This document shows, piece after piece, positions 46,504 to 51,864 of a stretch of DNA of 64,000 nt. The DNA lies in the sequence record OR896820.1; one strand, written 5' to 3'. Within the stretch, counting starts at the first letter, position 1; every line of letters starts with the position of its first letter. The stretch is from Escherchia phage Stokescottia. Below the pieces are notes generated by a model. That model worked only from the letters and a program-made list of their open reading frames with translations, had not been told where the DNA came from and did not search any database. The position numbers were made by a program, and so were the translations under genes.

Positions 46504-47019
46504 TTACTGAATTGATTCCCTACCATATAATTGGCCCCTAAACATCTTGGCCATAGAACATGCAACTTCATAGTTATCATATGTTCCTTTAACTACTCGT
46601 TTACGATTAATAGTAAATACTACTTGCCAGTTCTTACTACCAGAAGGGTAAACATGCATTCCTTTCTTATATTTGGTATTTCTTAGATTACCAGTTACTG
46701 TCTGATCCCTAAGATTTTCAATACGATCATCGCCTTTTATAGTGTTCTCATGATCTACCAAATCAGGTAAGTATCCATGATGCATTAAGAAGATAGCTCT
46801 GTGTCGGAGCATAGTTCTACTCCCTAGAGAAATACGGTAATAACCATTCCCCGTTGAAACACAACATTCCTTGCCTGCATTTCTTCCTGTAGTTCTAAAT
46901 AATTTTCCATCTTCATATCGGAAATTATCTAAAAGTTCTTGTTGTGTGAGCGACATCTTTACCTCCAATACATATATTATTACATAATCCATCCAATTTG
47001 TCAATGACAATTTATTCAT
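46504..47019 (-). CDS. HNH homing endonuclease
   Basis: 171 aa; HNH core 'VDHENTIKGDDRIENLR' followed by an AP2-like DNA-binding segment. Confidence 0.6.
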   Translation of the reverse strand: MNKLSLTNWMDYVIIYVLEVKMSLTQQELLDNFRYEDGKLFRTTGRNAGKECCVSTGNGYYRISLGSRTMLRHRAIFLMHHGYLPDLVDHENTIKGDDRIENLRDQTVTGNLRNTKYKKGMHVYPSGSKNWQVVFTINRKRVVKGTYDNYEVACSMAKMFRGQLYGRESIQ

Positions 47020-47098
47020 ACTGTCAATTAACTGGAAAGATTAGGTAATAATCCGAGCACTAATAGCCCGGATTATAGAGTTCAGCTAATAAAAATCA

Positions 47099-47488
47099 TT
47101 AGTCACTTAACCCCGGAACATAGATCCCAACACGGTTTAATTGTTCTTTAGCTTCTTTGAGTATATCTGGAGTGTACTCCCAAATATCATCTTCCACCTG
47201 TAAAAGATGGGGCGAACAACCGTCATCAGGCACACGACATATGGCCAAACCACGTGGATGGAACAAAGAGAAATTTAGGGCAACAATTAAACCCATAGCA
47301 GACAATTCATTCCAATCCAATTCCCATTCCCCGGCGTATCCAGACAGGAAAATGCCAATGCATGGATCATCTATTTGCTGCTCCGGAAAAGTGAAGGAGG
47401 CTTGTCTTACCCCCAACCAACGTTGTAGCAGCTTCTCCGCACGTTTCACCAAACTAGGGTCAATCTGACGCCAATATACTTGTTCCAT
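47099..47488 (-). CDS. Hypothetical protein, tandem paralog A
   Basis: 129 aa; shares 'PCIGI', 'MGL..ALN..LF.P' and 'PGL' anchors with the adjacent ORF. Confidence 0.35.
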   Translation of the reverse strand: MEQVYWRQIDPSLVKRAEKLLQRWLGVRQASFTFPEQQIDDPCIGIFLSGYAGEWELDWNELSAMGLIVALNFSLFHPRGLAICRVPDDGCSPHLLQVEDDIWEYTPDILKEAKEQLNRVGIYVPGLSD

Positions 47489-47497
47489 CCTGCCTCC

Positions 47498-47926
47498 TTA
47501 AGCAGTTAAACCTGGGATCATATACCCGAAACGTCGAAGTTTCTGAATCCCATCATTTACTTCTTCCGGTGAGTAAGACCAACCATAACGTTCATTAACC
47601 TGAAAACCAGGAGATTCACTAGTTTTATAGTTAACAACGAGGCGATGCTTAGCAGGCATAAACAGCTTATAGTTTAACGCAAAAACTAAGCCCATTTCAT
47701 CTAACTCTTTCCAGCCGACAATCTCTTCAAGACCCTCCTCTACCTGAACAATTAAACCAATACAGGGGGCCTCATCAATATCATCTTTAAAAGCAAAGGA
47801 GATTTCGTTATTCTCACACCATATTTTCAAAGAGTTAATAGCCTTATTATACAGGCTAGCTGGGAGAGTACGCCAAAAGTTAACCAAAATTGGGTTAGCT
47901 TCTTTAGAGAATACATTATTAAACAT
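47498..47926 (-). CDS. Hypothetical protein, tandem paralog B
   Basis: 142 aa; paralog of 47099-47488. Confidence 0.35.
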   Translation of the reverse strand: MFNNVFSKEANPILVNFWRTLPASLYNKAINSLKIWCENNEISFAFKDDIDEAPCIGLIVQVEEGLEEIVGWKELDEMGLVFALNYKLFMPAKHRLVVNYKTSESPGFQVNERYGWSYSPEEVNDGIQKLRRFGYMIPGLTA

Positions 47927-47928
47927 AT

Positions 47929-48441
47929 TTACACCTTAAATTGTTGTAGGGCTTTACACATTTCAAGATCTGGACTAAATTCTAACATATAGCTAACAGC
48001 TTTTAAATCTTGAAGATTTATTCCAGTCCTACCGTTGACTATAACCGTTGGATACTGATACATCATAGCACCCGCATCGTCAAGCACACACCAATGTTTG
48101 AGCCTATGCTTTTCAACGAAGCGAAGAACAGAATTACCCCTAGATAATCCACCCCCGGTAAAATCCGTTGTACCAAGAAAACGATCGATAAGGCCTAATC
48201 CGGTCATAATCTGAACATTCTCCATCTCATTTCTGACAGAGAACCAAGATGATACTCCAACAATCATTATCGGGGAAGGACGAATAAAGTCCTGAAAAGC
48301 CTTGAGAAGCGGTTTGAAAACCCAGTCACTCCCAAAGAAAATCTTTTCATCATCAGGTGCATGATGGTGGGAGATGCTCGAATTGAGCACCCCATCAATG
48401 TCTAGAAAAATAATTGGAGTATTACTTATTTCCTGATACAT
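47929..48441 (-). CDS. HAD-superfamily phosphatase-like protein
   Basis: 170 aa; motif I 'FLDIDGVL'; start overlaps the Sir2-like gene end. Confidence 0.5.
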   Translation of the reverse strand: MYQEISNTPIIFLDIDGVLNSSISHHHAPDDEKIFFGSDWVFKPLLKAFQDFIRPSPIMIVGVSSWFSVRNEMENVQIMTGLGLIDRFLGTTDFTGGGLSRGNSVLRFVEKHRLKHWCVLDDAGAMMYQYPTVIVNGRTGINLQDLKAVSYMLEFSPDLEMCKALQQFKV

Positions 48442-49237
48442 AAGGTCTATCCCCTAAATGAGCTTCTACACGAGCAATAAAATCAGGATCACTGAAAGCA
48501 TCTACCGCACCTTTACTCCAGTAAGGGATACCGCGTTCTTCCAGCTGGTACATCTCACTACGAGTCATACCTTGATAGCCCGGTTCCACCGCTAGGGCAC
48601 TATCATAGTAGTTAACAACCATTAGCTTGGCAGCAGTCAAATTAAGAACAGGAAATAATTCCCAGTAGAAATTAATTACTTGGTTAGAGCAACCAACCAC
48701 AATGATCATATCTTGACTGGTAATACCATCAAAAATATTGTACATCTCCGCATATGCTGGAGCATGCTCTCCAAAGAAGATTACATTAGGTTTAACCCAT
48801 TTATAATCATCTGGATCAATAGAATTGTATCCTACATCAATAATCCGTTTATTGCTACTATTGTAGCTATCAGCTACAACAACCTCTTTTAAATATCCGT
48901 GAATGTGCAGAATGTCACTATGTGAAACGCCAGCACGCTCAATAAGGTCATCAACGTTGGTAGTCAAGTTTACTACTTGACCTGGATATTGTTTATACCA
49001 TTCACCAATACGCAAATGCGCAAGATTGGGTTCAACAGTTTTTAGCTCTTCACGACGCTTGTTGTAAAACATATGGGTTTTATGATAAAAATTACCACGA
49101 AAGGCATGAATATTACATACTTCTTCTAGATCATAATCATCCCACAGTGCTTTACCACTAGCAGTATCAGTACGAAAAGCTCGTACACCACTTTCAACAC
49201 TCAAACCTGCACCGCTAATAATAATTAATCTACGCAT
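48422..49237 (-). CDS. Sir2-family NAD-dependent protein (sirtuin-like, no zinc ribbon)
   Basis: 271 aa; sirtuin motifs 'GAGLSVESGVRAFR', 'TTNVDDL', catalytic 'HG', 'PNVIFFGE', 'VVGCS'; no CxxC pairs. Confidence 0.65.
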   Translation of the reverse strand: MRRLIIISGAGLSVESGVRAFRTDTASGKALWDDYDLEEVCNIHAFRGNFYHKTHMFYNKRREELKTVEPNLAHLRIGEWYKQYPGQVVNLTTNVDDLIERAGVSHSDILHIHGYLKEVVVADSYNSSNKRIIDVGYNSIDPDDYKWVKPNVIFFGEHAPAYAEMYNIFDGITSQDMIIVVGCSNQVINFYWELFPVLNLTAAKLMVVNYYDSALAVEPGYQGMTRSEMYQLEERGIPYWSKGAVDAFSDPDFIARVEAHLGDRPYVSGNK

Positions 49238-49889: not shown

Positions 49890-49931
49890 ATAAAATAAAA
49901 GCCAGGTCGACTAGCAACCCGGCTGATTAGC

Positions 49932-51835: not shown

Positions 51836-51864
51836 ATTATAACTCATTCGAGGGCGGATGTCAA
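51836..51864 (-). promoter_or_regulatory. Consensus sigma70 promoter (TTGACA-N17-TATAAT) for nrdD
   Basis: Perfect hexamers with 17-nt spacing upstream of the nrdD RBS. Confidence 0.65.

What the first reader, a model, noticed from the sequence alone, without database searches (positions are those of the whole stretch)
47099..47926. Tandem duplicated paralogs of unknown function
Two adjacent ORFs (129 and 142 aa) share ordered anchors (PCIGI, W.EL, MGL..ALN..LF.P, PGL) but are otherwise diverged, indicating an old tandem duplication under diversifying pressure. That pattern is typical of proteins interacting with variable host targets.
Basis: seen in the sequence. Interest (0 to 1): 0.5.

Follow-up and report, generated by a model that had tools for sequence, protein, structure and literature searches.

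The report
Conserved T5 paralog pair, DUF7415 family
These two neighbouring genes are real, ancient duplicates, the counterparts of phage T5 genes T5.106 and T5.107 in the uncharacterised DUF7415 family, and they evolve conservatively rather than in an arms race, so the finding is catalogued and fairly ordinary although the function is still unknown.

Summary
The minus-strand ORFs 47498-47926 (A, 142 aa) and 47099-47488 (B, 129 aa) are paralogs (BLASTP E=3e-21, 32% identity over 125 aa).

The window is a T5-like phage. A and B are orthologs of T5.106 and T5.107, and both belong to Pfam DUF7415 and PHROG 2502.

The pair is adjacent and in the same order in about 520 Demerecviridae genomes, including the distant Klebsiella phage Sugarland. 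The duplication is therefore old.

The "diversifying pressure / variable host target" reading is not supported. Pairwise dN/dS is 0.08 for A and 0.21 for B, similar to the Sir2 and HAD neighbours, and no 20-codon window exceeds 0.63.

New details:
- Each protein has a divergent N-lobe, a ~50-aa DUF7415 core (alpha-alpha-beta-hairpin) and a C-terminal helix.
- B keeps the family's near-invariant core motif, whereas the A lineage has lost it.
- The core occurs alone in many phages and prophages, and is occasionally fused to nucleotide enzymes.

A and B are the last two tightly packed cistrons of the early Sir2-HAD operon downstream of nrdD.

Best guess, which is inference only: a small, acidic, non-catalytic binding pair with a conserved partner. 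Interest is low to moderate.

The parts
47498..47926 (-). Gene A, 142 aa, ortholog of T5.106 (two-lobed DUF7415 protein, derived copy)
   Evidence: ORF. Pfam DUF7415 at 121.6 bits and PHROG 2502 at E=3e-62. T5.106 sits at the same syntenic position. AF2 model has pLDDT 88.5 and pTM 0.82.
47099..47488 (-). Gene B, 129 aa, ortholog of T5.107 (two-lobed DUF7415 protein, conservative copy)
   Evidence: ORF. Pfam DUF7415 at 108.8 bits and PHROG 2502 at E=1e-60. 95% identical to T5.107 by tblastn (H144).
47732..47884 (-). A N-lobe (aa 15-65): strand, helix, beta-hairpin
   Evidence: On its own it matches Pfam DUF7415 at 70 bits. Secondary structure is E14-16, H23-36, E43-46, E55-61. Homology to the core is only weakly supported by independent tests.
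47573..47728 (-). A core (aa 67-118): degenerate DUF7415 core (FMP in place of FHP, KHR in place of GLA)
   Evidence: Pfam 55 bits, but only 23.5-24.8 bits against an HMM built from single-domain members alone.
47327..47482 (-). B N-lobe (aa 3-54); its hairpin and linker form the most variable, indel-prone segment of the pair
   Evidence: Pfam 59 bits. Highest pN/pS windows of the pair, 0.46-0.63. Indels visible in alignment A2.
47174..47323 (-). B core (aa 56-105): canonical DUF7415 core, DWNELS.MGLIVALN...FHPRGLA..R....G.SP
   Evidence: 62-64 bits against the single-domain HMM. Pfam 54 bits.
47932..47937 (-). Shine-Dalgarno AAGGTG for A; the HAD stop codon TAA lies 2 nt before the ATG of A
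   Evidence: Read directly from the sequence.
47493..47499 (-). Shine-Dalgarno AAGGAGG for B, overlapping the TAA stop of A; 9-nt intercistronic spacer
   Evidence: Read directly from the sequence.
47048..47076 (-). 11-bp hairpin 23 nt after the stop of B; probable operon terminator
   Evidence: Fold energy -19.9 kcal/mol for the 77-nt stretch, z=-4.0. T5 and AKM_ECS annotate a terminator at the same place. The simple scan did not call it because the T tail is weak.
47929..48441 (-). Upstream cistron: HAD_SAK_2 phosphatase (T5.105 ortholog)
   Evidence: Pfam PF18143, E=7.5e-20.
48422..49237 (-). Upstream cistron: Sir2-family protein (T5.102 ortholog); overlaps the HAD gene by 20 nt
   Evidence: Pfam PF02146, E=4e-25, and PHROG 2162.

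Best explanation
A and B are the T5.106 and T5.107 orthologs of a T5-like phage. They are two products of a tandem duplication that predates the radiation of the Demerecviridae.

Each is a small acidic protein (pI 4.9 and 4.6). Each consists of a divergent N-lobe, the ~50-residue DUF7415 core (two helices plus a beta-hairpin) and a C-terminal helix ending in PGL.

After the duplication the copies diverged asymmetrically. B kept the near-invariant family motif (DWN..S..GL...N....HP.GLA..R....G.S). A lost it. Both have been under purifying selection since.

They are the last two cistrons of the early Sir2-HAD operon just downstream of nrdD, with a 2-nt and a 9-nt spacer.

Inferred mechanism, not shown: the two proteins act by stoichiometric binding rather than catalysis, probably together as an A/B hetero-oligomer. 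In this picture B supplies the canonical binding surface and A acts as a specialised scaffold. The partner is conserved, not fast-evolving. My favoured partner class is the phage's own early nucleotide / NAD-RNA-end metabolism, or a nucleotide-derived ligand.

My rough probabilities:
- identity, orthology, old duplication and purifying selection: above 0.9
- non-catalytic binder: about 0.6
- A/B heteromer: about 0.5
- nucleotide/NAD-linked partner: about 0.3
For: Paralogy is shown. Family membership is shown. Orthology and invariant synteny (nrdD, small ORFs, Sir2, HAD, A, B, terminator, ori-binding gene) are shown.

523 phage records carry A, with 1035 matching places, about two per record. 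Sugarland carries the pair in the same order next to Sir2. Reciprocal best hits and an NJ tree place gp118 with A and gp117 with B.

Purifying selection: omega 0.08 for A and 0.21 for B, no window above 1.

Asymmetry: against the single-domain HMM, 13 of 15 B-side sequences score 46-78 bits (P0083 31, P0090 21) and the nine core A-clade sequences score 8-28 bits. The A clade lacks the HP motif in every lineage sampled, including Sugarland.

Fold: the AF2 models are confident. A and B share one fold.

Both proteins are acidic, and 103 of 115 single-domain relatives have pI below 5.5.

Coupled cistrons and a terminal hairpin are seen.

Nucleotide link:
- The core is fused to dATP/dGTP pyrophosphohydrolase PF04447 (P0157, P0161) and to a thymidylate-kinase domain (P0088).
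- It is inserted between nrdD and nrdG in Jiaodavirus T4-like phages.
- It lies one gene downstream of nudE in RB43.
- The T5-type Sir2-HAD neighbourhood has been predicted to be an NAD-dependent RNA-end repair module (PMC9503650, section 3.7.3).
Against: There is no direct evidence for any binding partner or for an A/B complex. I could not run a multimer prediction.

Phage MM-1 carries a 1-nt deletion that frameshifts B. B may therefore be dispensable, or this may be a sequencing error.

Many single-domain relatives sit in contexts with no nucleotide genes:
- between gpL and gpX of P2-like prophages
- between terminase subunits
- near rIIA/B
- after P2 gene A
- among anonymous small ORFs

HAD_SAK_2 genes in three other phage groups have no DUF7415 gene within 4 kb. 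Sugarland has the pair but no HAD.

Several invariant polar residues (N, H, S, R, E) could equally mark a catalytic site.
Confidence: 0.4

Rival explanations
1. Host-takeover or counter-defence inhibitors that bind a conserved host or defence protein. The small acidic proteins would block a host factor by direct binding early in infection.
For: Both proteins are small and acidic and lie in an early operon. The single-domain core is scattered like a moron across T4-like, P2-like, lambda-like and jumbo phages and prophages, with no constant neighbour. A review-type statement says that most unassigned T5/BF23 early genes probably serve host takeover or anti-immunity (PMC10644984).
Against: No match to any characterised inhibitor. 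PADLOC gives no hit, but it holds defence proteins, not anti-defence proteins. No literature exists on the family. The fusions to nucleotide enzymes are not explained by this reading.
Confidence: 0.25
2. Arms-race paralogs under diversifying selection that track variable host targets.
For: A and B are only 32% identical. The N-lobe hairpin and linker of B carry indels and show the highest pN/pS of the pair.
Against: Gene-wide omega is 0.08 and 0.21, the same range as the enzymatic neighbours. No window exceeds 0.63. Orthologs stay 65-99% identical across Escherichia, Salmonella and Yersinia phages. The core motif is conserved across phages of Pseudomonas, Vibrio, Aeromonas and enterics.
Confidence: 0.07
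3. RNA-binding, KH-like accessory subunits of the predicted Sir2-HAD NAD-dependent RNA-end repair system, which recruit the enzymes to broken tRNA or RNA ends.
Confidence: 0.1
4. A very small enzyme, active as a dimer or pseudo-dimer, that acts on a nucleotide-derived substrate. B would be the active copy and A an inactive regulatory copy.
For: Eleven positions are invariant among 96 single-domain sequences, including N, H and S; R, E and D are near-invariant. B keeps the His-Pro and A does not. The core is fused to nucleotide enzymes.
Against: A 50-residue core with no cofactor motif. No similarity to any enzyme fold or sequence in the PDB.
Confidence: 0.08

Closest known systems
Phage T5 genes T5.106 (YP_006934) and T5.107 (YP_006935), hypothetical proteins
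   Same: Orthologs. They occupy the same position (after T5.105 HAD, before a terminator and the ori-binding gene) in the same order. Lengths are 142 and 130 aa. B is 95% identical to T5.107, and A differs from T5.106 at dN 0.04.
   Different: Nothing substantial. In this window an HNH homing-endonuclease ORF (46504-47019) lies between the terminator and the ori-binding gene, which is not the case in T5.
Pfam PF24187 (DUF7415), PHROG 2502, and the single-domain PHROGs 3954, 33705 and 1812
   Same: Both proteins score far above the Pfam cut-off. Their C-halves carry the family core. The predicted alpha-alpha-beta-hairpin core matches the model of a 69-aa Pseudomonas prophage member.
   Different: Most of the family are 60-110-aa single-core proteins. 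The T5-type proteins add an N-lobe and a C-terminal helix with a PGL tail, and they come as a fixed A/B pair. The core of A is degenerate.
Type I KH domain (for example KRR1, FUBP1)
Sir2 plus 'Swiss-army-knife' HAD neighbourhood of SP15/T5-like phages (Iyer et al. 2022, PMC9503650)
   Same: A and B are the two cistrons immediately downstream of that Sir2-HAD pair in every Markadamsvirinae genome examined.
   Different: The passages I read (keyword look-ups for HAD, SP15 and Figure 5) do not mention these two genes. The RNA-repair role is itself a computational prediction. Sugarland keeps Sir2 and the pair but lacks HAD.

Membership tests
Pfam DUF7415 (PF24187) | Whole-protein score above the gathering cut-off (27 bits) | tested here: met
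   A scores 121.6 bits and B 108.8 bits. Each half scanned alone also passes: A-N 70.4, A-C 55.1, B-N 58.9, B-C 54.2.
Pfam DUF7415 (PF24187) | Conserved core motif DWN..S..GL..(R)IN.E.LHP.GLA..R....G.S | tested here: met
   B keeps it, scoring 62-64 bits against an HMM built only from single-domain members. A is degenerate (23.5-24.8 bits; His replaced by Met, GLA by KHR). The feature is met for B and only partly met for A.
Pfam DUF7415 (PF24187) | Shared helix-helix-beta-hairpin core fold | tested here: met
   Model of A: H72-77, H80-89, E94-99, E104-110. Model of the single-domain protein P0223: H9-14, H17-29, E31-36, E41-47. BFVD DUF7415 models match with Foldseek probability 1.0.
Internal tandem repeat (N-lobe homologous to the core) | Significant N-half versus C-half similarity that does not depend on the Pfam model | tested here: inconclusive
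   The Pfam model hits both halves. However, hhalign of the T5-only halves gives E=0.61, and the single-domain HMM against N-halves gives E of 0.28 or worse. With diverse alignments hhalign gives E=0.0012 over 45-51 collinear columns, at only 19% probability.
T5.106/T5.107 orthologous pair (PHROG 2502) | Full-length match plus conserved synteny and gene order | tested here: met
   PHROG 2502 at E=3e-62 and 1e-60, end to end. Identical gene order in T5, OSYSP, ESCO40, 3-29, DaisyDussoix, AKM_ECS, GreteKellenberger and MM-1.
Type I KH RNA-binding domain | GXXG loop between helices 1 and 2 | tested here: not met
   The inter-helix segment is E-M-G-L-V in A and A-M-G-L-I in B, with a single conserved Gly.
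Type I KH RNA-binding domain | Significant structural or profile similarity to KH domains | tested here: not met
Paralogs under diversifying (positive) selection | dN/dS above 1, gene-wide or in a contiguous region | tested here: not met
   Median omega is 0.08 for A and 0.21 for B. The maximum window pN/pS is 0.63. Site-level likelihood models were not run.
'Exonuclease', 'tail tube protein' and 'MazG-like' labels found on orthologs in GenBank | Any profile or structural support for those functions | tested here: not met
   No Pfam, NCBIfam or PDB sequence hit other than DUF7415. The labels occur and look like annotation carry-over.
Known anti-phage defence proteins (PADLOC-DB) | Profile match | tested here: not met
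   No families at E up to 1. No anti-defence protein library was available, so that membership was not tested.

The most novel reading that the evidence does not exclude
DUF7415 is a previously unrecognised fold with no solved relative. It would serve as a compact partner- or ligand-binding module of phage nucleotide/NAD metabolism. In T5-like phages it would have been fixed for a very long time as a heteromeric pair, made of one canonical subunit (T5.107-type) and one degenerate subunit (T5.106-type). That pair would regulate or target the Sir2-HAD / nrdD early gene block.
Probability: 0.2. Interest if true: 0.55.

Novelty: already known. Interest (0 to 1): 0.3.

Why it matters
The genes themselves are catalogued (T5.106/T5.107, Pfam DUF7415, PHROG 2502), so nothing categorically new is present in this window.

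The modest value lies in the family:
- It has a strongly conserved ~50-residue core: 11 invariant positions in 96 sequences.
- It is spread over T5-like, T4-like, P2-like, lambda-like and jumbo phages and many gammaproteobacterial prophages.
- It has no solved structural relative and no paper.
- It occurs in a model phage where knock-outs are easy.

The asymmetric A/B pair (canonical plus degenerate copy) gives a concrete, testable starting point for assigning a function to the whole DUF.

Tried and rejected
- **Solved structures.** Sequence searches of the PDB with A, with the family alignment and with the core alignment gave nothing better than E=0.35.
- **Other libraries.** PADLOC and NCBIfam gave no hits for A or B.
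- **Literature.** Searches for DUF7415 and for T5.105/106/107 found no papers.
- **HAD-DUF7415 linkage.** I tested whether it is conserved outside T5-like phages. It is not: Proteus Pm5461, Aeromonas Aes508 and Serratia ChuuTotoro have no DUF7415 gene within 4 kb of HAD_SAK_2.
- **The PF04447-DUF7415 fusion.** I looked for it in isolated phages. Only the pyrophosphohydrolase part is found, so the fusion is metagenomic and rare.
- **A+B complex prediction.** MAFFT stacked the B-type homologs onto the A part, so no usable block alignment resulted. No job was submitted.
- **Internal repeat.** The first two independent tests were negative and the third was only weakly positive. It stays unproven.
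- **Other strand and RNA.** An Rfam scan and a family scan of the antisense ORF both found nothing.

Full report
**What is there**

The region holds two minus-strand ORFs: A (47498..47926, 142 aa) and B (47099..47488, 129 aa). BLASTP of one against the other gives E=3e-21, with 32% identity over 125 residues and a single gap.

Each ORF has its own Shine-Dalgarno sequence:
- AAGGTG precedes A. The stop codon of the upstream HAD gene lies 2 nt before the ATG of A.
- AAGGAGG precedes B and overlaps the stop codon of A, leaving a 9-nt spacer (sequence).

An 11-bp hairpin follows B (fold energy -19.9 kcal/mol for the 77-nt stretch, z=-4.0). T5 and another phage annotate a terminator at this position. 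The antisense ORF has no family match, and the region has no Rfam match.

**Identity**

The window is a T5-like phage, up to about 95% identical in DNA to Tequintavirus genomes. A and B are the orthologs of T5.106 and T5.107.

Both match Pfam DUF7415 (PF24187; 122 and 109 bits, cut-off 27) and PHROG 2502 (E about 1e-60), and nothing else in Pfam, NCBIfam or PADLOC.

The neighbours on the same strand, in transcription order, are nrdD, a terminator, three small ORFs, Sir2, HAD_SAK_2, A, B, the hairpin, an HNH ORF and the ori-binding gene. Apart from the HNH ORF, which some of them lack, and a varying number of small ORFs, this order is the same in all eight other Markadamsvirinae examined.

**Age of the duplication**

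tblastn with A finds 523 phage records and 1035 places, about two per record. Klebsiella phage Sugarland belongs to a different lineage of the Demerecviridae. It has the pair adjacent and in the same order, just downstream of Sir2 with one small ORF between.

A hits the upstream Sugarland-type gene best and B the downstream one. An NJ tree puts gp118 with A and gp117 with B (the tree is rough and has no support values). The duplication is therefore older than the family's radiation.

**Selection**

I computed Nei-Gojobori dN/dS over 8-9 phages.

| Gene | Median omega |
|---|---|
| A | 0.08 |
| B | 0.21 |
| Sir2 | 0.16 |
| HAD | 0.06 |

In 20-codon windows the highest pN/pS is 0.63, in the N-lobe of B. 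That segment also carries indels. No window reaches 1.

The 'diversifying pressure' reading is therefore not supported at this resolution. The low A-B identity reflects age and an early asymmetric divergence.

**Architecture**

An AF2 model of A is confident (pLDDT 88.5, pTM 0.82). Its elements in order are E14-16, H23-36, E43-46, E55-61, then E67-70, H72-77, H80-89, E94-99, E104-110, then H120-132. A BFVD model of a B ortholog superposes with TM 0.86/0.92, so A and B share one fold.

An exhaustive HMM search of 1.84 billion representatives finds 151 relatives. Most match only profile positions ~55-112, which is the C-half core, IDWN..S..GLI.RIN.EILHPLGLA..R.PETG.S.G.LV..DG.WEY.

The core occurs in two forms:
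- as stand-alone proteins of 60-110 aa;
- fused to other regions, including dATP/dGTP pyrophosphohydrolase PF04447 (twice) and a thymidylate-kinase domain.

A model of a 69-aa Pseudomonas prophage member has the same helix-helix-hairpin core, with block-mean pLDDT of 88-96 over residues 1-50.

The Pfam model also matches the N-halves of A and B (70 and 59 bits). This suggests that each protein is an internal repeat. Independent tests are negative or weak:
- hhalign of the T5-only halves gives E=0.61.
- The single-domain HMM against N-halves gives E of 0.28 or worse.
- hhalign with diverse alignments gives E=0.0012 over 45-51 collinear columns.

I rate the internal repeat as likely but unproven.

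**Asymmetry between the copies**

I scored the two-lobed proteins against an HMM built only from single-domain members. Thirteen of the 15 B-side sequences score 46-78 bits (P0083 scores 31 and P0090 21), and nearly all of them keep the His-Pro motif. All core A-clade sequences, including Sugarland gp118, score 8-28 bits and have lost it: FMP, LLR, LLG or LYP stand in place of FHP.

B is therefore the conservative copy and A the derived one, and this state has been maintained across the family.

**Structural relatives**

**Genomic context of the wider family**

Some contexts involve nucleotide metabolism:
- the T5 operon downstream of nrdD;
- the gap between nrdD and nrdG in Jiaodavirus T4-like phages;
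- one gene downstream of nudE in RB43;
- the fusions listed above.

Others do not:
- between gpL and gpX in P2-like prophages;
- between terminase subunits;
- near rIIA/B;
- after P2 gene A;
- among anonymous small ORFs.

HAD_SAK_2 genes in three other phage groups have no DUF7415 neighbour.

Iyer et al. 2022 predicted that the SP15/T5-type Sir2-HAD neighbourhood is an NAD-dependent RNA-end repair system. The passages I read, reached by keyword look-ups, do not mention these two genes (PMC9503650). No paper mentions DUF7415 or T5.106/107.

**Interpretation**

These points are shown:
- real genes and real paralogs;
- T5.106/T5.107 orthologs and DUF7415 members;
- an ancient duplication with asymmetric divergence;
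- purifying selection on both copies;
- the last cistrons of the early Sir2-HAD operon;
- no solved structural relative.

The following is inferred. The proteins are small acidic non-catalytic binders that probably work together. B would carry the canonical surface and A a specialised one. Their partner is conserved. I marginally favour a partner in the phage's nucleotide / NAD-RNA-end metabolism (about 0.3) over a conserved host or defence protein (about 0.25). RNA binding and a mini-enzyme are less likely. The arms-race reading is the least likely (about 0.07).

**Verdict**

The finding is a correct observation of a catalogued, uncharacterised gene pair. It is not novel as a kind. Its interest is low to moderate and rests on the wide distribution, strong conservation and apparently unrepresented fold of the DUF7415 core.

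Noticed in passing
window 46504-47019 (-): An HNH (HNH_3, PHROG 99) homing-endonuclease ORF lies between the operon terminator and the ori-binding gene. T5, OSYSP and several others lack it at this site, and only 42 of 440 matching records cover at least 80% of the 2.1-kb query that includes it. It is probably a mobile insertion.
   Followed up: partly
L001 4697-5088 (Escherichia phage vB_EcoS_MM-1, PV577657): The T5.107 ortholog carries a 1-nt deletion (CCGGAG to CC-GAG). This frameshifts it, and it is annotated as two 66-aa CDS. It is either a sequencing error or evidence that B is dispensable in the laboratory.
   Followed up: partly
window 47929-48441 and RefSeq records of T5-like phages: The HAD_SAK_2 phosphatase (T5.105 ortholog) is labelled 'Sir2 (NAD-dependent deacetylase)' in many RefSeq records through PHROG 18062. 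DUF7415 orthologs are variously labelled 'exonuclease', 'tail tube protein' or 'MazG-like'. None of these labels has profile support.
   Followed up: yes
L018 3980-7196 (Serratia phage ChuuTotoro, ON287369): Here the HAD_SAK_2 homolog sits directly upstream of ribose-phosphate pyrophosphokinase and nicotinamide phosphoribosyltransferase, a set of NAD+ salvage genes. This hints that this HAD clade may act in NAD/ADPr metabolism rather than, or as well as, RNA-end repair.
   Followed up: no
protein P0056 (718 aa): A metagenomic protein made of about 13 perfect tandem copies of a 53-aa unit. Its end (WAFSVEMLQDGIKEAVRFGHSVW) resembles the C-terminal helix region of A (WSYSPEEVNDGIQKLRRFGY). Several other very long proteins (1371-2734 aa) also match that segment repeatedly. 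The origin is unexplained; it may be an assembly artefact or an unrelated repeat protein.
   Followed up: no
window 51836-51864 (-) and 49900-49924 (-): A perfect sigma-70 consensus promoter (TTGACA, 17 nt, TATAAT) lies upstream of nrdD, and a strong terminator-like hairpin lies directly after it. Together they delimit nrdD as its own transcription unit ahead of the Sir2-HAD-A-B operon.
   Followed up: partly
L019 3480-3713 (Klebsiella phage ValerieMcCarty05) and similar Jiaodavirus records: A 77-aa single-core DUF7415 gene is wedged between nrdD and nrdG and overlaps both ends. This arrangement recurs in many T4-like Klebsiella phage records.
   Followed up: partly
L021 2758-3210 (P2-like record OU784549): A 150-aa ORF directly after the P2 replication gene A carries a DUF7415-like core. 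The T5 annotation notes that T5.106 is 'similar to ORF91 TrEMBL Q858T3'. From memory, which I did not verify, P2 orf91 occupies this position.
   Followed up: no
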